From the NCBI GenBank assembly GCA_016285185.1, contig JAEEQG010000031.1, positions 4,118 through 68,117 of the forward strand: a stretch of 64,000 nt of DNA. Reading direction: 5' to 3'. A program made the position numbers and the translations under genes. Below, in pieces: positions 56,049-61,074 of this stretch; position 1 is the stretch's first letter; every line of letters begins with the position of its first letter. Under the pieces are notes generated by a model, which worked only from the letters and a program-made list of their open reading frames with translations, did not search any database and was not told the origin of the DNA. The DNA is from Spirochaetota bacterium. Its GTDB lineage: Bacteria; Spirochaetota; Spirochaetia; Treponematales; Treponemataceae.

Positions 56049-56627
56049 TTAAGAAAGCTCTTGCAAATTTGAATTGCATGCACACAAAAGCTCATCAACG
56101 GAAGCAACTTTCCATTTTTCGCAGGCGAGCTTTATGATAAGTCCGCAAGTGCGGGAATCTTCGAGCGCATCATGGGCAAGGTAGTCTATTCCGAATGTAC
56201 TGCCTAAAAAGGTAAGCGCGTGACTTTTCAGCTCCGGCCATGTTCTGCGCGAAATACGCAAAGAATCAAAGTACCTTATCTTTGGCAGCTCCATATTAAA
56301 ACGGTCGCAGCATCCCTTTATAACGCCCATATCAAAAGAAGCGTTGTGCGCTACCAGCGGAAAATCAGGGGTTTTGTCCAAAAAAGGTTGAACCAAATTC
56401 TGCCACACTTCGGGAAAACACGGCTGATCTACAACGTCTTCATAACTTATATGATGAATGTCGCGTGTCCATTCCGGTACAAAATACATAACAGCGGGTT
56501 TTATAAGATGACAGACGCTGTCTGTTTCTACTCCGTTTTCAAATCTTATAAGCCCTATGGAACAGGCACTGCACGAAAGTTTGTTTGCTGTTTCAAAGTC
56601 AATGGCAATGTAATTAAGTTCGTTCAT
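56049..56627 (-). CDS. DEDDh 3'-5' exonuclease (DnaQ/epsilon-like, stand-alone)
   Basis: Exo I IAIDFETAN, Exo II AHNASFDMGV, and Exo III HDALEDSRTC. I chose the ATG at 56627. The 120-aa upstream extension of the track ORF overlaps the opposite-strand gene and shows no similarity. Confidence 0.8.
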   Translation of the reverse strand: MNELNYIAIDFETANKLSCSACSIGLIRFENGVETDSVCHLIKPAVMYFVPEWTRDIHHISYEDVVDQPCFPEVWQNLVQPFLDKTPDFPLVAHNASFDMGVIKGCCDRFNMELPKIRYFDSLRISRRTWPELKSHALTFLGSTFGIDYLAHDALEDSRTCGLIIKLACEKWKVASVDELLCACNSNLQELS

Positions 56628-56735
56628 AATTTTTGTACTTACGGATATATTACCTGTAGAACGTGAAAAAGTACAGACCGAAAAGCTTTGCTGTTGAAAA
56701 TGACTGCCGGATTGTGTAGAATTCTGCAAGCAACT

Positions 56736-57263
56736 ATGAAAAATGAAAGTCCGAGTATTGTTGTACACGAAATAAAACCTGTTTGGAACAGCAAAAGCAC
56801 AGTTCTGATTCTCGGAACAATGCCGTCTCCCAAAAGCCGTGAAGCCGGTTTTTTCTATATGCATCCTCAGAACCGCTTTTGGAAGGTTCTGCCTCAAGTA
56901 TTCGGTGAAACACTTGTTTATGCCAACAATGCACCCCAAAAAGATAAAGCTGTTGAGGAACGTATTGATTTTTTGTACCGGCATCAAATTGCGCTTTGGG
57001 ATGTGCTTAAAAGCTGCGAAATTACAGGTGCGGCGGATTCAAGCATAAAAAACGCAGTACCGAACGACTTTACACAGATTTTCTCGGAATCACAAATCAA
57101 AAGGGTTTTCTGTACCGGTAATACCGCATTTTTGCTCTGGAACAAATATTGTGCAGCCAAATACCAGAGTTTCGGCATAACTTGCGAATGTCTTCCGAGT
57201 ACGAGCCCTGCAAATGCACGTTGGAATTTTGAAAAACTTGTTGCCGCATACCGCCGGATTTAA
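56736..57263 (+). CDS. UDG-superfamily DNA glycosylase, family 6 type (DNA-deoxyinosine/hypoxanthine glycosylase-like)
   Basis: VLILGTMPSPKSREAGFFYMHPQNRFWKVL, ALWDVLKSC and LPSTSPANA are present. The start is uncertain (ATG 56700 or 56736). An extended -10 (tgtTAGAAT) lies at 56714-56722. Confidence 0.7.
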   Translation: MKNESPSIVVHEIKPVWNSKSTVLILGTMPSPKSREAGFFYMHPQNRFWKVLPQVFGETLVYANNAPQKDKAVEERIDFLYRHQIALWDVLKSCEITGAADSSIKNAVPNDFTQIFSESQIKRVFCTGNTAFLLWNKYCAAKYQSFGITCECLPSTSPANARWNFEKLVAAYRRI

Positions 57264-57305
57264 TTGATGTATGATAAAAAAGCGCAAAATAGAGGAGATA
57301 AAATT

Positions 57306-57837
57306 ATGAGTTCAATTCAAATACAACAAAAAGGAATTACTGATATCCCGGCGGATGCGATTGTAAATGCGGCAAATACCGGTCTTTGGGCAGGAGGCGG
57401 TGTCTGCGGAGTTATATTCCGAAAAGCGGGTATGACAGAACTTACGGCAGCATGTAATGCAATCGGACACTGTGATGAGGGGAGTGCTGTTATTACACCG
57501 GGCTTCGGCTGTCCCTGCAAACACATTATTCATGCCGTAGGGCCTCGTTATTTGGATGGAAAGCATGGCGAACCGGATGCTCTTTACGGTGCATACAAAA
57601 AATCATTGGAATTGTGCCGCGAAAATGACATTCATTCGGTAGTATTCCCGCTTATTTCAGCAGGTATTTTTGGTTATCCTCTTTATGAGGCCTGGACTCA
57701 GGCAATGTATGCCTGCAAGAACTTTATTGAAAAAAAATCAGGATTATAATTTGGATATTATCTTTGCCATCCCTGAGACTGAAAAGGTAAAGGCTGGAAA
57801 GGAAATTAAAAATGCAGTTTTAGCAGATGGTAAATAG
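57306..57837 (+). pseudogene. macro-domain protein (ADP-ribose binding/hydrolase) interrupted by a +1 frameshift in an A8 tract
   Basis: ITDIPADAIVNAANTGLWAGGGVCGVIF and FPLISAGIFGYP are macro-domain motifs. The ORF stops at 57749. Removing one A from the run at 57730-57737 gives ...NFIEKNQDYNLDIIFAIPETEKVKAGKEIKNAVLADGK, ending at 57837, which restores the expected last beta-strand and helix. Confidence 0.6.
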
Positions 57838-57948
57838 CTTATTTACCATGGGTAAATAGTCGATTTACCTACTGCGCATCGTCGATTTACCGAGGGTAAA
57901 TAGTCGATTTACCCACGGTTCGTCGACGATTTACCCTCGGTAAATAAA
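57829..57948. repeat. phased 22-bp repeat array (5 units) built from ATTTACC / GGTAAAT half-sites
   Basis: (C/T)(G/T)ATTTACC starts at 57839, 57861, 57883, 57905 and 57927, exactly 22 bp apart. The 17-bp palindrome ATTTACC-N3-GGTAAAT occurs at 57841, 57885 and 57929 (44-bp spacing). The identical 20-mer gggtaaatagtcgatttacc occurs at 57850-57869 and 57894-57913. Confidence 0.9.
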
Positions 57949-57981
57949 TTGTTATGAAAACAGTTTTTAGGAAAAACAAAA

Positions 57982-58788
57982 TTGGCCACTACTACTAATC
58001 TTCTTATAGGCACAAGCGGTTTTGACTACCCCGAATGGAAGGGTGTGTTTTATCCTGCTGATTTAAAGCGTAAAGACTTTTTGCAGTATTATGCCACGCA
58101 GTTTAATGCGCTTGAGCTTAACGGCACATTTTATAATATGCCCACCGGTGAGAGGCTCCTTTCGTTTTACGAAAGGAGTGAGGGCAACTTACAGTTCAGC
58201 GTAAAGGCTAACCGCCTGCTCACACATGAAATTGCCCAAAACTGGCAGAGTACAGCACAGGCTTTTGAAGATGCGCTCAAGCCGCTTCAAGACAAAGGCT
58301 GCCTTAGCGCGGTGCTGTTTCAGTTTCCGCAGAGCTTTCATTATACAGAAGAAAACCGCTTGTATCTTGCTAATCTCATCAAAGTTTTTGACGGCTTTCC
58401 TGTTGTGATAGAGTTCCGCCACGCAGAATGGATAAAGGAATCCGTATTTGAAGGGCTTGAAAAGCGCAATGCCGGAATAGTTTTTTGCGATATGCCGCAG
58501 CTCAAGTACCTGCCCGACGGAAGCAGGCTCAAAACACCGTTTATCGGTAAGAATGCGTATATACGTCTTCACGGTCGCAACGAAAACGCCTGGTATTCGG
58601 TCAATGATTCTCCGAACGGCTCTGCACGATACAATTACGAATACAGCGACAGTGAGCTTGAAAGCTTTGTGCCTGTTATAAATCAGGCTTTGGTGGAAGA
58701 AAAAAAGGTTCACGTATTCTTTAACAACCACCCCAACGGCAACGGCGCAAAGAACGCAAAAAAGCTGAAACAGATGATGCAGGCGTAA
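57982..58788 (+). CDS. DUF72 (YecE/UPF0759) family protein
   Basis: LIGTSGFDYPEWKGVFYP, YYATQFNALELNGTFY, IEFRH and FFNNH resemble DUF72 signatures. It uses a TTG start preceded by aggaaaaa. Confidence 0.75.
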   Translation: MATTTNLLIGTSGFDYPEWKGVFYPADLKRKDFLQYYATQFNALELNGTFYNMPTGERLLSFYERSEGNLQFSVKANRLLTHEIAQNWQSTAQAFEDALKPLQDKGCLSAVLFQFPQSFHYTEENRLYLANLIKVFDGFPVVIEFRHAEWIKESVFEGLEKRNAGIVFCDMPQLKYLPDGSRLKTPFIGKNAYIRLHGRNENAWYSVNDSPNGSARYNYEYSDSELESFVPVINQALVEEKKVHVFFNNHPNGNGAKNAKKLKQMMQA

Positions 58789-58797
58789 TATCCGGTT

Positions 58798-59418
58798 TTA
58801 GCCCTGCAACTTGTGAACAACGTAGCGGACTTTACCCACTATCCTAAAGTCGTCGCTTTCGCCGCTTTCGGTCATGGGCGCATACATCTTGTTGTCTGAA
58901 ATAATGCGGACAAAGTCCTTGTCGCGCTGGAGACGTTTTACAAACGCCGCCCCCTTGTAGTTTATGGCATAAATGCCGTCAGCGCCGTCATAGCCGAAAG
59001 TGTCGTAAAGAATAATGTCATTGTCAAAAAGAGTCGGCTCCATCGAGTCTCCGCGCACATAAGAGGCGCGTATATTGTTGCGGTACTTTTTAAGATTGGC
59101 AGGAAGCGCAACATAATCCATAATTTCCGCGGTATCAGGCAGTTCCTGACCCTTACCGGCAGAAAAAGCCTGTTCATAAACCGGAATGTTTATAATATCT
59201 TTAGAAGGTACATCGGGGTACAGCTTGAACTGTTCCATAGTAAGACCGAGAGATTCAACTATTTTAAGCCCCTCATCAAAGCCCGGCAGCCTTCCGAGCG
59301 AAATCTTGTTGCGAAGTGAACCGAGTACAAGACCTGTCTGTTCACAAAGCCATTCCTGGTTCTTGTCCTGTTCAGAGAGCAAAAGCTTTACTTTTTTCCA
59401 AAATAGTTCCGCATCCAT
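58798..59418 (-). CDS. XRE-HTH / S24-peptidase repressor (phage CI / HdiR / LexA-like, autocleavable)
   Basis: N-terminal HTH (QEWLCEQTGLVLGSLRNKISLGR), a candidate Ala-Gly cleavage site (FSAGKG), the Ser motif GDSMEPT, and the Lys motif FVKRL. I chose the ATG at 59418. Confidence 0.8.
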   Translation of the reverse strand: MDAELFWKKVKLLLSEQDKNQEWLCEQTGLVLGSLRNKISLGRLPGFDEGLKIVESLGLTMEQFKLYPDVPSKDIINIPVYEQAFSAGKGQELPDTAEIMDYVALPANLKKYRNNIRASYVRGDSMEPTLFDNDIILYDTFGYDGADGIYAINYKGAAFVKRLQRDKDFVRIISDNKMYAPMTESGESDDFRIVGKVRYVVHKLQG

Positions 59419-59425
59419 GCTGATT

Positions 59426-59506
59426 ATTATACAATGATTTTTTAATAAAATAAATAACTGTTTGGTTATTATTTTTGTTGACAAATAATCGCCGCGGAAT
59501 TATTAT
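59426..59506. promoter_or_regulatory. divergent promoter/operator region between the S24 repressor gene and umuD-umuC
   Basis: Plus strand: TTGACA 59478-59483, 17 nt, TATTAT 59501-59506, 9 nt, ATG 59516. Minus strand: extended -10 tgtTATAAT (59431..59426), 7 nt, ATG 59418. Palindromes are AATAAC-N6-GTTATT (59453-59470) and AATAAT-N9-ATTATT (59484-59504). Confidence 0.5.
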
Positions 59507-59515
59507 CAAATTACA

Positions 59516-59821
59516 ATGATAAGCGGATTCCCCAGCCCCGCGCAGGGCTATGAAAGCAGTACGATAGATTTGAACACAATCCTCATAAAGCACCCTGCCG
59601 CAACCGTTTTTATGCAGATAGAAAGTTCACGCTACCGCAATATGGGCATTTATGACGGTGACCTGCTTGTAATTGACAGGGCGCTGCCGTTTAATCCAAA
59701 AGCTCTTGTGGTTTATGAATCGGAAGGACATTTTGCACTGGGGCGCGCGTGTAACATAGGGGATGAGATGCTTATTACTGGCACAATAACTTACATAATA
59801 CACACGGTAAAAAGAACATGA
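59516..59821 (+). CDS. umuD: UmuD-like Pol V accessory subunit, natively UmuD-prime-length, with catalytic Ser/Lys replaced
   Basis: It starts MIS-GFPSPAQGY..., where E. coli UmuD reads ...C24/G25FPSPAADY. IDLNTILIKHPAATVF and GIYDGDLLVID are conserved. It overlaps umuC by ATGA. Confidence 0.75.
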   Translation: MISGFPSPAQGYESSTIDLNTILIKHPAATVFMQIESSRYRNMGIYDGDLLVIDRALPFNPKALVVYESEGHFALGRACNIGDEMLITGTITYIIHTVKRT

Positions 59822-61074
59822 TTCTGCACGCCGACGGAAACTCTTTTTATGCCTCGTGCGAGCAGATTTACCGTCCCGACCTGCGCTCAAAACCGGTGGC
59901 GGTTCTCTCCAACAATGACGGCATAATAATCGCTCTGAACAAGGAAGCAAAAGCCTGCGGAATAAAGCGCGGAGACCCTTACTTTAAGGTGCGTGCCTTG
60001 TGTGCTTTGCACGGTATTACAATCTTTTCCAGCAATTACACCCTTTATGCGGACATCAGCCGGAGAATTACTTCCATATATGCCGAATACGCGCCCGAAA
60101 TTGAAGTGTATTCCATTGACGAATCTTTTTTGTTCTTTGATGACTGCAACTGGTCTATAAAAGACTATGAAGAAATCGGGCACGACCTTAAGCGCAGAAT
60201 TATGAAGGAAGTAGGAATTCCCATCTGCGTGGGAGCCGCACCCACAAAAACTCTCGCCAAGCTGTACAACAAGCGGGCAAAAGAACACGGCGGTGTTTTT
60301 GTATATGATTCTGCCGGTGTGGATGCGCTTTTGCAAACCACACCCTGCGGAGATATTTGGGGAATAGGTCCTGCCCGCGCAAAGACCCTTGCACAGCGTG
60401 GTGTTAAAAACGCACTTATGCTAAAGCACATGCCGCTTTGCGATGCTAAAAAGCTTTTGACTGTTCAGGGCATGGGTACTGTTCAGGAACTGAACGGAAT
60501 CCGTGTGATGGATAAAAACACAAGGCAAAAAAAGGATGTGATTACTTCAAGCAAGCAGTTTTCCATAAAAGTATATGATATGGAAACAATCGAGTGTGCC
60601 ATGGTTGAATACACCGAGATTGCTGTTGAGAGGATGCGCAAACAGGGGTCTGAGTGTCAGGCTGTGCAGGTTATTATCTCAACGTGCAACTATTACAGCG
60701 ATGACGCAAGCTTGCAGTATTCAAACGCGGCTGTTGTGCGCCTTCCGCGTTTTACCTCATACACGCCGGACATAGTAGCCGCCGCACGGCTTGCCCTGCC
60801 GCGGATTTTCCGCGAAGGGTACGGCTACAAGGTAGTTATGATAACGCTTTTGGAGCTGATGCCCGCGCAGTATCAGGGCTGGCTTTGGGTTGATCCTGTG
60901 GAAGACGTAAAAAAGCGCAATCTGATGGAAGCCGTTGATGCCATAACAGCTGCGTGCGGCCGCCATTCACTCACACTTGCCAAATCGTTCACCAAGGACG
61001 GCTGGCAGATGAAGCGCGAATTCCTGAGCCCCTGCGTTACCACAGACATAGACCGTGTTCCGGCCGTGCTGTGA
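59818..61074 (+). CDS. umuC: Y-family DNA polymerase V catalytic subunit
   Basis: ILHADGNSFYASCEQIYRPDLRSKPVAVLSNNDGIIIALNKEAKACGIKRGDPYF parallels the E. coli UmuC N terminus. SIDESFL is the catalytic DE. 418 aa. Confidence 0.9.
   Translation: MILHADGNSFYASCEQIYRPDLRSKPVAVLSNNDGIIIALNKEAKACGIKRGDPYFKVRALCALHGITIFSSNYTLYADISRRITSIYAEYAPEIEVYSIDESFLFFDDCNWSIKDYEEIGHDLKRRIMKEVGIPICVGAAPTKTLAKLYNKRAKEHGGVFVYDSAGVDALLQTTPCGDIWGIGPARAKTLAQRGVKNALMLKHMPLCDAKKLLTVQGMGTVQELNGIRVMDKNTRQKKDVITSSKQFSIKVYDMETIECAMVEYTEIAVERMRKQGSECQAVQVIISTCNYYSDDASLQYSNAAVVRLPRFTSYTPDIVAAARLALPRIFREGYGYKVVMITLLELMPAQYQGWLWVDPVEDVKKRNLMEAVDAITAACGRHSLTLAKSFTKDGWQMKREFLSPCVTTDIDRVPAVL

What the first reader, a model, noticed from the sequence alone, without database searches (positions are those of the whole stretch)
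56049..61074. Clustered DNA-damage processing and tolerance genes under a CI/HdiR-like repressor in a spirochete
Within 5 kb lie seven genes. They are a stand-alone DEDDh exonuclease (-), a family-6 UDG/hypoxanthine-DNA glycosylase (+), a macro-domain (ADP-ribose removing) gene (+, frameshifted), a DUF72 protein (+), an XRE-HTH/S24 autocleavable repressor (-), and umuD-prime/umuC (+). The repressor is divergent from umuDC and keeps the Ala-Gly site, GDSMEPT and VKRL. It could therefore be the RecA*-sensitive switch that the UmuD homologue has lost. From memory, this divergent repressor-umuC layout resembles the HdiR-type SOS mutagenesis cassette reported in streptococci rather than a classical LexA regulon. 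I am not aware of it being described for Treponema. The co-location of a macro domain, a base-excision glycosylase and the uncharacterised DUF72 suggests a shared role in repairing modified DNA bases, possibly including ADP-ribosylated ones. That functional link is pure inference.
Basis: inference. Interest (0 to 1): 0.62.

Follow-up and report, generated by a model that had tools for sequence, protein, structure and literature searches.

The report
Repressor-gated error-prone polymerase cassette in Treponema
A rumen Treponema carries a small, apparently portable gene cassette in which a phage-type self-cleaving repressor probably keeps an error-prone DNA polymerase silent until DNA is damaged; only one of the four neighbouring "repair" genes (DUF72) looks linked to it, and the other three sit there by recent accident.

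Summary
All seven genes are present as described. They are not one unit.

**Core cassette.** The conserved unit is a lambda-CI-like repressor (58798-59418, minus strand). It is transcribed divergently from a UmuD' homologue that is already truncated and catalytically dead, and from UmuC. Between the two promoters lies an 18-bp dyad, unique in each locus. Its arms change by compensatory swaps, and its four types track the repressor's recognition helix.

**Distribution.** UmuD' lies divergent from the repressor in 38 of 53 Treponema loci, with different flanking genes. Four of 10 genomes of the genus carry the cassette.

**LexA.** The genome also has a canonical LexA and RecA. The cassette is therefore an add-on, not a LexA substitute.

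**Neighbours.** In a sister strain (96-97% nucleotide identity) synteny breaks at 57263 and 57978. The exonuclease-UDG6 block there has other neighbours, and the macro gene and repeat array are absent at both breakpoints. No repressor operator lies near these genes.

**DUF72.** This gene does recur beside error-prone polymerase cassettes across spirochaetes, of both the UmuD'C and the ImuB-DnaE2 type.

**Verdict.** This is a new variant of a known kind (HdiR-umuC, FddR-dinB, SetR-rumAB). RecA-stimulated cleavage and DNA binding are inferred, not shown.

The parts
58798..59418 (-). rep: 206-aa CI-like repressor with a five-helix XRE-type HTH domain, an Ala87-Gly88 cleavage site, and an S24 domain with Ser125 and Lys161
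   Evidence: The S24 domain scores PF00717 68.8 bits. The cleavage site and the catalytic dyad are invariant in 31 homologues. The AlphaFold model has pLDDT 82 and shows five N-terminal helices followed by an S24 beta-domain. The best Foldseek matches are a lambda-186 hybrid repressor, LexA, 186 CI and lambda CI. A profile of the family hits the XRE HTH structures 3bs3 and 3omt. tblastn finds 27-30% identity to phage cI/C2 repressors over 96% of the length.
59453..59470 (.). O1: 18-bp dyad AATAACTGTTTGGTTATT, the candidate repressor operator between the two -35 regions
   Evidence: The dyad sits in a fixed register, 13 or 16 nt from its centre to TTGACA, in 33 loci. There are 20 distinct versions. 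Arm positions 2, 4 and 5 are Watson-Crick symmetric in 19-20 of 20 versions, with A.T to C.G swaps. The four operator types co-vary with repressor helix 3. It is the only exact copy in the window. The two other exact copies in the genome lie inside long ORFs. In the 9 of 13 related loci whose dyad arms are perfectly symmetric, the exact dyad is unique within the locus.
59426..59431 (-). Predicted -10 (TATAAT on the minus strand) of the rep promoter. It ends 7 nt from the rep ATG, so the mRNA would be leaderless or nearly so.
   Evidence: Read from the sequence. The element ATTATAC is conserved at this position in related loci. A bovine rumen metatranscriptome contig matches 59169-59410 with no mismatch; this is weak evidence.
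59478..59506 (+). Predicted umuD'C promoter: TTGACA (59478-59483), a 17-nt spacer and TATTAT (59501-59506). The ATG is at 59516. The spacer holds the palindrome AATAAT-N9-ATTATT, a possible second operator.
   Evidence: Read from the sequence. TTGACA and a TATCAT-like -10 are conserved in all related loci. A second operator is not consistently supported across loci.
59516..59821 (+). umuD': 101-aa UmuD homologue that is born truncated at the cleavage site and lacks the Ser-Lys dyad
   Evidence: It scores NF007621 71.9 bits. In the HMMER alignment to E. coli UmuD, S60 aligns with R39 and K97 with G76. All cassette homologues begin M-x-[ST]-G-F-P-S-P-A, with an in-frame stop shortly upstream, and have Gly/Ser (Arg in one divergent subgroup) at the Lys97 position.
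59818..61074 (+). umuC: 418-aa Y-family polymerase whose start overlaps umuD' by 4 nt
   Evidence: Domains found are PF00817 at 138.5 bits, IMS_C and DUF4113. It scores NF002955 (UmuC subfamily) 302 bits. Asp6 and the SIDE motif are visible in the sequence.
57982..58788 (+). DUF72 gene, convergent with rep. It is a probable accessory of the cassette, with its own unidentified promoter.
   Evidence: It scores PF01904 197.9 bits. It is retained next to rep in the sister strain. DUF72 is adjacent to umuC in 6 of 8 UmuC-positive relatives (counting the window's own genome), and lies in the same operon in two other genera. It is also the first gene of DUF72-ImuB-DnaE2 operons elsewhere in the phylum.
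57264..57981 (+). Strain-specific filler, not part of the cassette. It comprises the frameshifted macro-domain gene (57306-57749, tail to 57837) and a 22-nt-period palindromic repeat array (57829-57981).
   Evidence: Synteny with the sister strain breaks at 57263 and at 57978. The repeat array was mapped, and similar arrays occur at several other places in the genome. Independent contigs end inside the array.
56049..57263 (.). Unrelated neighbours: a DEDDh exonuclease (56049-56627, minus strand) and a UDG family 6 glycosylase (56736-57263, plus strand). They belong to the TrmH-YchJ block.
   Evidence: The block is syntenic with the sister strain only as far as 57263. These genes are never found near the cassette elsewhere.

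Best explanation
The functional unit is a self-contained, horizontally shuffled cassette for DNA-damage-inducible mutagenesis. It consists of rep, then umuD'-umuC transcribed divergently from it. In this lineage a DUF72 gene sits beside it.

Proposed mechanism:
1. Rep is a lambda-CI-type dimeric repressor. It would bind the 18-bp dyad O1, which lies between two divergent, near-leaderless promoters. O1 touches the rep -35 region and lies 7 bp upstream of the umuD'C -35.
2. Bound Rep would keep the strong umuD'C promoter shut and autoregulate rep.
3. After DNA damage, RecA filaments would stimulate Rep to cut itself at Ala87-Gly88, using Ser125 and Lys161. The DNA-binding domain would be released and the operon de-repressed.
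4. UmuD' is made already in its shortened form and cannot self-cleave. The second RecA checkpoint that E. coli applies to Pol V is therefore missing, and Rep cleavage is the only gate.
5. DUF72 is related in fold to UV-damage endonuclease. It is most likely a lesion-processing accessory that tends to travel with error-prone polymerase cassettes.

The exonuclease, UDG6 and macro genes are bystanders.

Shown here: gene identities, conserved catalytic and cleavage residues, conservation of the cassette, operator dyad symmetry and its covariation with the recognition helix, and lack of synteny for the neighbours.

Inferred: Rep binding to O1, RecA-stimulated cleavage, induction by damage, Pol V activity, and the role of DUF72.
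For: Conservation of the cassette:
- The divergent Rep/UmuD' pairing occurs in 38 of 53 Treponema loci. UmuC follows in 31 of them, and the flanking genes differ from locus to locus.
- Rep and UmuC co-occur perfectly in the genus. Four of 10 genomes have both and none has only one, whereas LexA is in all 10.

Repressor:
- The cleavage site and catalytic dyad are invariant.
- The fold is CI-like.
- An orthologue in another genus hits Pfam HTH_3.

Operator:
- O1 keeps its dyad symmetry through compensatory changes.
- Its four types track recognition-helix variants.
- It has no other intergenic copy in the genome. In the 9 of 13 related loci whose dyad arms are perfectly symmetric, the exact dyad is unique within the locus.

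UmuD' and host factors:
- UmuD' is truncated and lacks the dyad in every cassette.
- RecA is present.
- The lexA-type autoregulatory palindrome TATAC-N4-GTATA is conserved in the genus but is absent from the cassette.

DUF72:
- It is adjacent to umuC in 6 of 8 UmuC-positive relatives (counting the window's own genome), including UmuD'-UmuC-DUF72 operons.
- Seven of 65 DUF72-positive spirochaete genomes have DUF72 directly upstream of a Y-family polymerase gene, where about 0.1 would be expected by chance.
- The literature reports DUF72 enriched near PolB2 translesion operons and notes its UVDE-like fold (PMC11791011).

Precedents:
- HdiR-umuC (PMC8565304).
- FddR-dinB, described there as a mobile divergent unit (PMC13148647).
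- SetR on rumAB, with an operator overlapping the -35 (PMC8460599).
Against: - No experiment supports binding, cleavage or induction.
- O1 is centred about -51 from the predicted umuD'C start. That is upstream of the -35 rather than over the core promoter, so repression geometry is uncertain. O1 could instead mainly serve rep autoregulation, since it is centred about -42 from the rep start, like lambda OR2 at PRM.
- A second operator in the promoter spacer is seen in some lineages only.
- Covariation between operator and recognition helix is confounded by their co-inheritance.
- The N-terminal domain of the window's own protein gets no Pfam HTH hit.
- The LexA box used for exclusion is itself only inferred from lexA upstream regions. 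It was not found upstream of recA.
- DUF72 lies next to only about a fifth of the Treponema cassettes. In the window it has no O1 site upstream.
- UmuC scores below NCBIfam's UmuC cut-off (302 against 431 bits).
Confidence: 0.72

Rival explanations
1. Rep is the immunity repressor of a prophage, a satellite or an integrative element. On this reading umuD'C is cargo or a remnant, and the cassette reports on induction of the element rather than serving the cell.
For: - Rep's closest characterised relatives are phage cI/C2 repressors.
- In five loci a D5-type primase-helicase and unknown genes lie just beyond umuC.
- Variant loci pair the same repressor family with an unknown 478-486-aa gene and a TopB-like topoisomerase.
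- The cassette is patchily distributed, and some genome bins hold two or three copies.
Against: - The window and most other loci show no integrase, capsid or conjugation genes next to the cassette.
- No tRNA or tmRNA integration site is found, apart from tRNA genes within 2-8 kb in two loci.
- Where the dyad arms are perfectly symmetric (9 of 13 loci scanned), the operator is found only in the rep/umuD' intergenic region.
- Rep is directly paired with umuD' in 38 of 53 loci. This points to a dedicated regulator rather than a regulator of a whole element.
Confidence: 0.15
2. All seven genes form one damage-processing island under Rep control. It includes repair of modified or ADP-ribosylated bases by the macro, UDG6 and DUF72 proteins.
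For: All seven products can be connected to nucleic-acid damage chemistry. They lie within 5 kb of one another in this contig.
Against: - The exonuclease, UDG6 and macro genes are absent from all 53 related cassette loci.
- UDG6 has other neighbours in 23 relatives.
- In the sister strain synteny breaks at 57263 and 57978, and the blocks lie on different contigs.
- The macro gene is frameshifted.
- No O1-like site lies in 56628-56735 or 57829-57981, even allowing 2 mismatches.
- The join at the repeat array has no independent support.
Confidence: 0.04
3. umuD'C is controlled by the canonical LexA, as in E. coli. Rep would then be an unrelated or redundant neighbour, for example one that only autoregulates.
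For: The genome has LexA and RecA. O1 lies nearer the rep promoter than the core of the umuD'C promoter. R391 shows that LexA and a CI-like repressor can act on the same Pol V operon (PMC8460599).
Against: - No match to the lexA-type palindrome within 1 mismatch lies in the cassette.
- The divergent pairing is strictly conserved, and Rep and UmuC co-occur perfectly in the genus.
- A cassette of this type also occurs in a relative that lacks LexA (G012).
Confidence: 0.08

Closest known systems
HdiR-umuC SOS mutagenesis cassette of Streptococcaceae (Savijoki 2003; Varhimo 2007; summarised in PMC8565304)
   Same: A phage-type (COG2932-like) S24 repressor with an HTH domain, an Ala-Gly site and a Ser-Lys dyad regulates itself and an adjacent Y-family polymerase. 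The regulon is minimal.
   Different: The streptococci lack LexA, whereas this Treponema has a canonical LexA as well. The Treponema cassette carries a true UmuD-fold partner that is pre-truncated and catalytically dead. Orthology to HdiR was not tested, and the repressor family seems confined to Treponema and its relatives.
FddR and its fddR-dinB paralogue modules in Francisella (PMC13148647)
   Same: A lambdoid-type S24 repressor is transcribed divergently from an error-prone polymerase gene, with a palindromic operator between them. The same module is found in different genomic environments and is interpreted as a self-contained, transferable regulatory unit.
   Different: The polymerase there is DinB, with no UmuD partner. 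The host lacks LexA. FddR binding was shown by EMSA; here binding is only inferred.
SetR (lambda cI-like) repression of rumAB (Pol V-R391) on the SXT/R391 integrative conjugative elements (PMC8460599)
   Same: A CI-like, RecA-cleavable repressor acts on a Pol V operon in a LexA-positive host. Its single operator sits at the edge of the -35 element.
   Different: SetR controls a whole conjugative element and works together with CroS and LexA. RumA still needs RecA-dependent cleavage. The Treponema cassette shows no Cro-like partner gene and no detectable LexA box.
UmuDAb of Acinetobacter (PMC7273328, PMC11332147)
   Same: An S24 protein other than LexA represses error-prone polymerase operons and is cleaved after DNA damage.
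   Different: UmuDAb is a UmuD that acquired DNA binding. Here the repressor and the UmuD-like protein are separate, and the UmuD-like protein has lost all cleavage capacity.
Phage P1 HumD / E. coli UmuD' (NCBIfam NF051876, NF007621; PDB 1umu)
   Same: It is a UmuD-fold protein encoded directly in the shortened, active-like form.
   Different: The scores fall below both family cut-offs (56.9 against 120 bits, and 71.9 against 110 bits). The Ser and Lys positions are replaced. Such short, dyad-less homologues are common in metagenomes, so this feature is not unique to Treponema.
ImuA-less lexA-(DUF72)-inactive PolY-DnaE2 cassettes (Timinskas & Venclovas 2019, PMC6511836) and DUF72 near PolB2 operons (PMC11791011)
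   Same: DUF72 is found beside damage-inducible translesion polymerase genes that are controlled by an S24 repressor.
   Different: In the window the polymerase is of the Pol V (UmuD'C) type, the repressor is CI-like rather than LexA, and DUF72 is a convergent neighbour rather than the first gene of the operon.

Membership tests
Lambda CI / HdiR-type autocleaving repressors (XRE HTH + peptidase S24, COG2932-like) | C-terminal S24 domain with a Ser-Lys catalytic dyad | tested here: met
   PF00717 scores 68.8 bits against a cut-off of 23.3. Ser125 and Lys161 are invariant in 31 homologues.
Lambda CI / HdiR-type autocleaving repressors (XRE HTH + peptidase S24, COG2932-like) | Ala-Gly cleavage site in the linker before the S24 core | tested here: met
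   S86-A87-G88 is invariant in 31 homologues.
Lambda CI / HdiR-type autocleaving repressors (XRE HTH + peptidase S24, COG2932-like) | N-terminal five-helix XRE/CI-type HTH domain rather than the winged helix of LexA | tested here: met
   The model shows five helices in residues 3-66 with pLDDT about 90. The family profile hits the XRE HTH structures 3bs3 (E = 2.9e-5) and 3omt. The best full-length fold matches include lambda and 186 CI. An orthologue in G012 hits HTH_3. Caveat: the window's own protein gets no Pfam HTH hit.
Lambda CI / HdiR-type autocleaving repressors (XRE HTH + peptidase S24, COG2932-like) | Binds a palindromic operator in its own control region | tested here: inconclusive
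   The evidence is computational only. An 18-bp dyad keeps its symmetry through compensatory changes, has no other intergenic copy in the genome, and co-varies with helix 3. No binding assay was possible.
Lambda CI / HdiR-type autocleaving repressors (XRE HTH + peptidase S24, COG2932-like) | RecA-filament-stimulated self-cleavage | not testable with these tools
   RecA is encoded in the genome. Cleavage itself needs biochemistry.
HdiR orthologous group (clusters with Streptococcus phage repressors) | Phylogenetic placement with HdiR | not tested
   No HdiR sequence was compared. Close homologues come only from Treponema and its relatives.
Canonical LexA (TIGR00498) | Score over the family cut-off, with a winged-helix LexA DNA-binding domain | tested here: not met
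   Rep scores 19.7 bits against a cut-off of 110.95. A different gene on C125 scores 194.2 bits and is the genome's LexA.
UmuD (Pol V accessory subunit, NF007621) | UmuD-type S24 fold, with the gene coupled to umuC | tested here: met
   HMMER matches E. coli UmuD and UmuD' structures at E = 2e-13. The stop of umuD' and the start of umuC overlap by 4 nt. The NCBIfam score is 71.9 bits, below the cut-off of 110.
UmuD (Pol V accessory subunit, NF007621) | N-terminal arm with a Cys/Ala-Gly site, and a Ser60-Lys97 dyad for RecA-dependent activation | tested here: not met
   The protein starts two residues before the position equivalent to the cleavage site. Ser60 aligns with Arg39 and Lys97 with Gly76. 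The same holds in all cassette homologues.
UmuC (NF002955 subfamily; Y-family polymerase) | IMS catalytic core, little-finger domain and C-terminal DUF4113, with catalytic acidic residues | tested here: met
   PF00817 scores 138.5 bits, PF11799 44 bits and PF13438 53.6 bits. Asp6 and S-I-D-E are visible in the sequence. The NCBIfam score of 302 bits is below the cut-off of 431, so subfamily membership is likely but not formally met.
UDG family 6 (hypoxanthine-DNA glycosylase, TIGR04274) | Score over the equivalog cut-off | tested here: met
   117 bits against a cut-off of 80.
Macro domain (PF01661) | Intact macro-domain open reading frame | tested here: not met
   The domain scores 119.7 bits, but the frame breaks at the A8 run 57730-57737. 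About the last 30 residues lie in the +1 frame. The same A8 run appears in an independently built contig, probably from the same sample.
DUF72 (PF01904) | Full-length match to the family model | tested here: met
   197.9 bits, covering model positions 1-217 of 217.

The most novel reading that the evidence does not exclude
DUF72 may be an unrecognised lesion-processing nuclease that acts as a partner of error-prone polymerases of several unrelated kinds: Pol V-like UmuD'C, ImuB-DnaE2 and PolB2. In Treponema it would form a portable four-gene 'cut-and-bypass' module together with a CI-like, RecA-cleavable repressor and a pre-activated UmuD'. The repressor/operator pairs of this module have diversified into at least four specificities. 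As with heteroimmune phages, this would let several cassettes coexist in one genome and fire independently of the LexA regulon.
Probability: 0.3. Interest if true: 0.7.

Novelty: new variant of a known kind. Interest (0 to 1): 0.45.

Why it matters
Error-prone polymerases drive stress-induced mutation, and how tightly they are gated decides how mutable a bacterium is. The cassette matters for four reasons:

1. It shows the 'phage repressor plus translesion polymerase' module, known from LexA-less streptococci, Acinetobacter and Francisella, in a spirochaete that still has LexA. Such modules can therefore be add-ons and need not be replacements for a lost SOS system.
2. It removes one of the two RecA checkpoints on Pol V, because UmuD' is born activated. 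That makes it a simple natural system for asking how much each checkpoint matters.
3. Its operator and recognition-helix variants form a ready-made set for studying how repressor specificity evolves.
4. It adds Pol V-type cassettes to the contexts that tie the large uncharacterised DUF72 family to DNA-damage tolerance. That link is directly testable in a cultivable rumen species, Treponema bryantii.

Equally useful is the negative result. The attractive seven-gene 'repair island' is a recent juxtaposition and should not be used for function prediction by guilt by association.

Tried and rejected
- **LexA box in the cassette.** I derived TATAC-N4-GTATA from lexA upstream regions of the genus. 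The cassette has no match within 1 mismatch. The motif was not found upstream of recA either, so the LexA regulon remains undefined and this exclusion is soft.
- **A wider Rep regulon.** Genome-wide, O1 has only two other exact copies, and both lie inside long ORFs. There are none near the exonuclease/UDG6 genes or DUF72.
- **A second operator in the umuD'C promoter spacer.** Half-site-like matches appear in some lineages (types A, B and D) but are not consistent. I did not claim it.
- **Independent check of the macro frameshift.** Only one run covers the gene. It matches at 100% identity and about 5x depth and is probably the source sample. It also has A8. A real mutation therefore cannot be told from a systematic error.
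- **Independent check of the contig join at the repeat array.** No Logan contig bridges about 57950-58010.
- **Mobile-element hallmarks.** There are no tRNA or tmRNA genes in 14 of 16 loci (two have tRNA genes 1.7-7.4 kb from the repressor) and no Rfam family. No composition anomaly is apparent.
- **Expression evidence.** One 242-nt rumen metatranscriptome contig lies over rep, and none over umuD'C. This is too thin to use.
- **Literature on DUF72.** A search for DUF72 together with imuB, dnaE2 or umuC found only the PolB2 neighbourhood remark.

Full report
**Where the window comes from.** The window is part of a 2.77-Mb, 173-contig assembly. Its closest public relative is Treponema sp. UBA1240, at 96% nucleotide identity over the cassette. 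The repressor is 75-78% identical to those of Treponema bryantii strains. Runs that hold the sequence are ruminant gut metagenomes. The organism is therefore an uncultured rumen Treponema.

ORF listing and Pfam/NCBIfam scans confirm each gene:
- a stand-alone DEDDh exonuclease at 56049-56627 (minus strand), whose real start is MNELNY;
- a family-6 UDG, a hypoxanthine-DNA glycosylase, with TIGR04274 at 117 bits against a cut-off of 80;
- a macro-domain gene whose frame shifts by +1 at the A8 run 57730-57737;
- a DUF72 gene;
- an S24 repressor on the minus strand;
- a 101-aa UmuD homologue;
- UmuC, whose start overlaps the end of umuD' by 4 nt.

**The repressor.** It is best read as 206 aa (58798-59418). 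In alignments of 16 and 31 homologues, Ala87-Gly88, Ser125 in GDSMEPT, and Lys161 in VKRL are invariant. An AlphaFold model (pLDDT 82) shows five N-terminal helices followed by an S24 beta-domain. Its best full-length matches in the PDB include the lambda and 186 CI repressors and LexA. The family profile hits XRE-type HTH structures. tblastn finds phage cI/C2 repressors at 27-30% identity over 96% of the length. The window's own N-terminal domain gets no Pfam HTH hit, but an orthologue in another genus hits HTH_3.

**The UmuD homologue is pre-activated and dead.** A HMMER alignment to E. coli UmuD (8gmt) places its Ser3-Gly4 on Cys24-Gly25, Arg39 on the catalytic Ser60, and Gly76 on Lys97. 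Every homologue in the related cassettes starts M-x-[ST]-GFPSPA, has an in-frame stop just upstream, and carries Gly/Ser (Arg in one divergent subgroup) at the Lys97 position. Short UmuD'-like proteins without the dyad are frequent among the 3108 relatives found in a 1.8-billion-protein library. This feature alone is therefore not unusual.

**The genome also has a canonical LexA.** Only three S24 genes exist in the assembly. The third, on contig C125, is a textbook LexA: TIGR00498 at 194 bits, with VAAG, GNSM and KR motifs. RecA is present too. LexA occurs in 37 of 41 relatives and in all 10 genomes of the genus. The repressor and UmuC each occur in only 4 of those 10, and always together. The cassette is thus an accessory add-on to a LexA-positive cell. 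This differs from the HdiR, UmuDAb, FddR and Bacteroidetes cases, which were all described in lineages without LexA (PMC8565304, PMC13148647).

**What is conserved is a three-gene cassette.** A scan of one genome per species returned 53 Treponema-group loci with a relative of the repressor.
- In 38 of them a UmuD' gene lies divergently upstream. In 31, UmuC follows. The rest are cut off by contig ends or carry another gene.
- Clustering all ORFs of these loci shows that the flanking genes differ from locus to locus.
- Five loci have a D5-type primase-helicase beyond umuC. Eight carry an unknown 478-486-aa gene as the gene under the repressor's divergent promoter (four with UmuD' retained, four directly), and seven of these also hold a TopB-like topoisomerase.
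- Several genome bins hold two or three cassettes.
- None of the 53 loci contains the exonuclease, UDG6, macro, GNAT or YchJ genes of the window.

**The control region.** The 97-bp intergenic region holds TTGACA-17-TATTAT ending 9 nt before the umuD' ATG. On the other strand a TATAAT ends 7 nt before the rep ATG. Both mRNAs would therefore be leaderless or nearly so, as for lambda cI from PRM.

Between the two -35 regions lies the 18-bp dyad AATAACTGTTTGGTTATT (59453-59470).
- Aligning 33 loci on their TTGACA shows the dyad in a fixed register, 13 or 16 nt from its centre to the -35, in 20 distinct versions.
- Arm positions 2, 4 and 5 are Watson-Crick symmetric in 19-20 of 20 versions, even though they switch between A.T and C.G or G.C.
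- The versions fall into four core types: TAAC, TCAC, TACY and GTAAY. Each type goes with its own variant of the predicted recognition helix, for example LRNKISLGR against LRNWIYYKR.
- The exact dyad occurs once in the window. In the 9 of 13 related loci whose dyad arms are perfectly symmetric it is unique within the locus; in the other four the arm-based pattern recovers the site only at two mismatches. In the 2.77-Mb genome it occurs only twice more, both times inside long ORFs.

This is what an operator co-evolving with its repressor looks like, although co-inheritance of linked sequences inflates the signal. Where two cassettes share a genome bin they are usually of different types, A plus C. 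That would allow independent control.

The geometry leaves a question. O1 is centred about -42 from the rep start and about -51 from the umuD'C start. How the strong umuD'C promoter is shut is therefore not settled. The spacer palindrome AATAAT-N9-ATTATT in the window may help, but comparable elements are not consistent across loci.

**No sign of LexA control of the cassette.** Upstream of lexA, the genus conserves the palindrome TATAC-N4-GTATA, which overlaps the -10. No match within one mismatch lies in the cassette. The motif is only inferred and is not seen upstream of recA, so this exclusion is provisional.

**The neighbours are bystanders, with one exception.** Against the sister strain (G009, apparently the UBA1240 genome), nucleotide synteny of 96-97% runs from umuC to the start of DUF72 and stops at 57978. 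From the other side it runs through TrmH, YchJ, the exonuclease and UDG6, and stops at 57263.
- In that strain the two blocks lie on different contigs. DUF72 is preceded by a 954-aa restriction/methylase-like gene, and UDG6 is followed by unrelated genes.
- Contigs from other samples show the same alternative junction upstream of DUF72.
- The 714 bp between the breakpoints is absent at both breakpoints in the sister strain. It holds the frameshifted macro gene and a 22-nt-period palindromic repeat array. Similar arrays occur at several other places in the genome.
- No independently assembled contig bridges the array, so even the join itself is unverified.
- In 23 other relatives UDG6 has no exonuclease, macro or DUF72 neighbour.

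**DUF72 is the exception.** It stays next to rep in the sister strain. It is adjacent to umuC in 6 of the 8 relatives (counting the window's own genome) that have a UmuC orthologue, in three arrangements:
- convergent with rep;
- convergent with umuC;
- the last gene of a UmuD'-UmuC-DUF72 operon, seen in two other genera. In one of these, which lacks LexA, an HTH_3/S24 repressor lies divergently upstream.

Elsewhere in the order and phylum:
- DUF72 is the first gene of DUF72-(ImuB-like Y-family)-DnaE2 operons. Two of these in one genome sit divergent from a Rep-like S24 gene, with a perfect 19-bp palindrome between them.
- In four genomes lexA lies directly upstream of DUF72 on the same strand, with a Y-family polymerase gene after it.

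In a sample of 65 DUF72-positive spirochaete genomes, 7 have DUF72 directly upstream of a Y-family gene. Roughly 0.1 would be expected by chance, although the seven represent only a few families. A 2025 study noted DUF72 enrichment near PolB2 translesion operons and its structural relation to UV-damage endonuclease (PMC11791011). Earlier notes of this scan report lexA-DUF72-imuB-dnaE2 operons in other phyla; I treat those as leads only.

Within the T. bryantii group, however, only about a fifth of the cassettes have DUF72 nearby. In the window DUF72 has no O1 site upstream.

**Comparison with known systems.** The working logic matches three precedents:
- HdiR-umuC in streptococci;
- the fddR-dinB modules of Francisella, explicitly described as self-contained divergent units found in different genomic environments;
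- SetR acting at the -35 edge of rumAB on R391 in a LexA-positive host (PMC8565304, PMC13148647, PMC8460599).

What differs here is the lineage (Spirochaetota), the coexistence with LexA, the pairing with a genetically pre-truncated and dyad-less UmuD', the diversified operator specificities, and the DUF72 association. I found no paper describing such a cassette in Treponema. The library does not cover all journals.

**Verdict.** It is wrong about the macro, UDG6 and exonuclease genes, and wrong that the cassette stands in for a LexA regulon. This is a new variant of a known kind and of moderate interest. Binding, cleavage and induction are untested inferences.

Noticed in passing
window 57829-57981: There is a 22-nt-period array of GGTAAAT/ATTTACC palindromic units. 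Similar arrays occur at several other places in the genome (contigs C29, C99, C107, C159 and C161). Independent assemblies break inside the array, and synteny with the sister strain ends at its edge. It may be a small repetitive element that promotes rearrangement.
   Followed up: partly
L030:4950-5950; also L005, L006, L010, L016, L026, L028, L034: A DNA element of about 600-800 nt that does not look protein-coding lies 1-3 kb from the cassette in 8 loci. It is 71-88% identical between different Treponema species, which is more conserved than the neighbouring proteins. It matches no Rfam family and no tRNA or tmRNA, and it is absent from the window's genome. It could be an unknown large RNA or the end of a mobile element.
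   Followed up: partly
L140:1-4443 and L141:1-4199 (genome G039): One genome holds two copies of a cassette in which a Rep-like S24 repressor is divergent from a DUF72-ImuB-like-DnaE2 operon. A perfect 19-bp palindrome, GGTGATTAAAATAATCACC, lies in the intergenic region.
   Followed up: partly
L149-L152 (genomes G073, G117, G044, G096); L146-L148 (G243, G214, G158): In four spirochaete genomes lexA lies directly upstream of DUF72, and a Y-family polymerase gene follows. Three further genomes have DUF72-ImuB-like-DnaE2 operons. DUF72 thus takes the position usually held by imuA.
   Followed up: partly
L012:5729-7189, L040, L042, L043, L051: In variant cassettes the same repressor family is divergent from an unknown 478-486-aa protein with no Pfam match. 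In L011-L014 UmuD' is retained between them. A TopB-like topoisomerase lies nearby in most of these loci.
   Followed up: no
L016, L017, L026, L028, L029 (upstream of umuC): A D5-type primase-helicase and two unknown conserved genes lie just beyond umuC. This suggests that some cassettes sit at the edge of an integrated mobile element.
   Followed up: no
L009:4325-6848: A 2.5-kb insert separates rep from umuD'. It is flanked by two copies of the control region, each with operator and promoter, and by a duplicated 5' fragment of rep. It looks like a recent insertion or duplication inside the cassette.
   Followed up: no
proteins P0134, P0138-P0140, P0143-P0145: These proteins of about 250-270 aa contain two tandem UmuD'-like domains. 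In the two that I inspected, the first domain lacks the Ser-Lys dyad and the second keeps GDSM and Lys. They may be covalently fused UmuD' pseudo-dimers.
   Followed up: no
genome contig C125:9992-10005 (L001:1232-1245): The lexA gene has the palindrome TATACTAATGTATA overlapping its -10 and ending 3 nt before the ATG. It is conserved in the genus. It is a candidate Treponema LexA box, and it implies a near-leaderless lexA mRNA.
   Followed up: partly
window 59169-59410: A bovine rumen metatranscriptome contig of 242 nt matches the 5' part of rep with no mismatch and stops 8 nt short of the ATG. No RNA contig covers umuD'C. This fits a repressor that is expressed and a polymerase operon that is silent, but the depth is far too low to conclude anything.
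   Followed up: partly
genome bins RGIG7950 (L022, L030, L056), RGIG7571 (L005, L032), RGIG8175 (L006, L031): Bins with two or three cassettes usually combine different operator types (A with C). This could mean orthogonal control, or it could reflect strains mixed within one bin.
   Followed up: no
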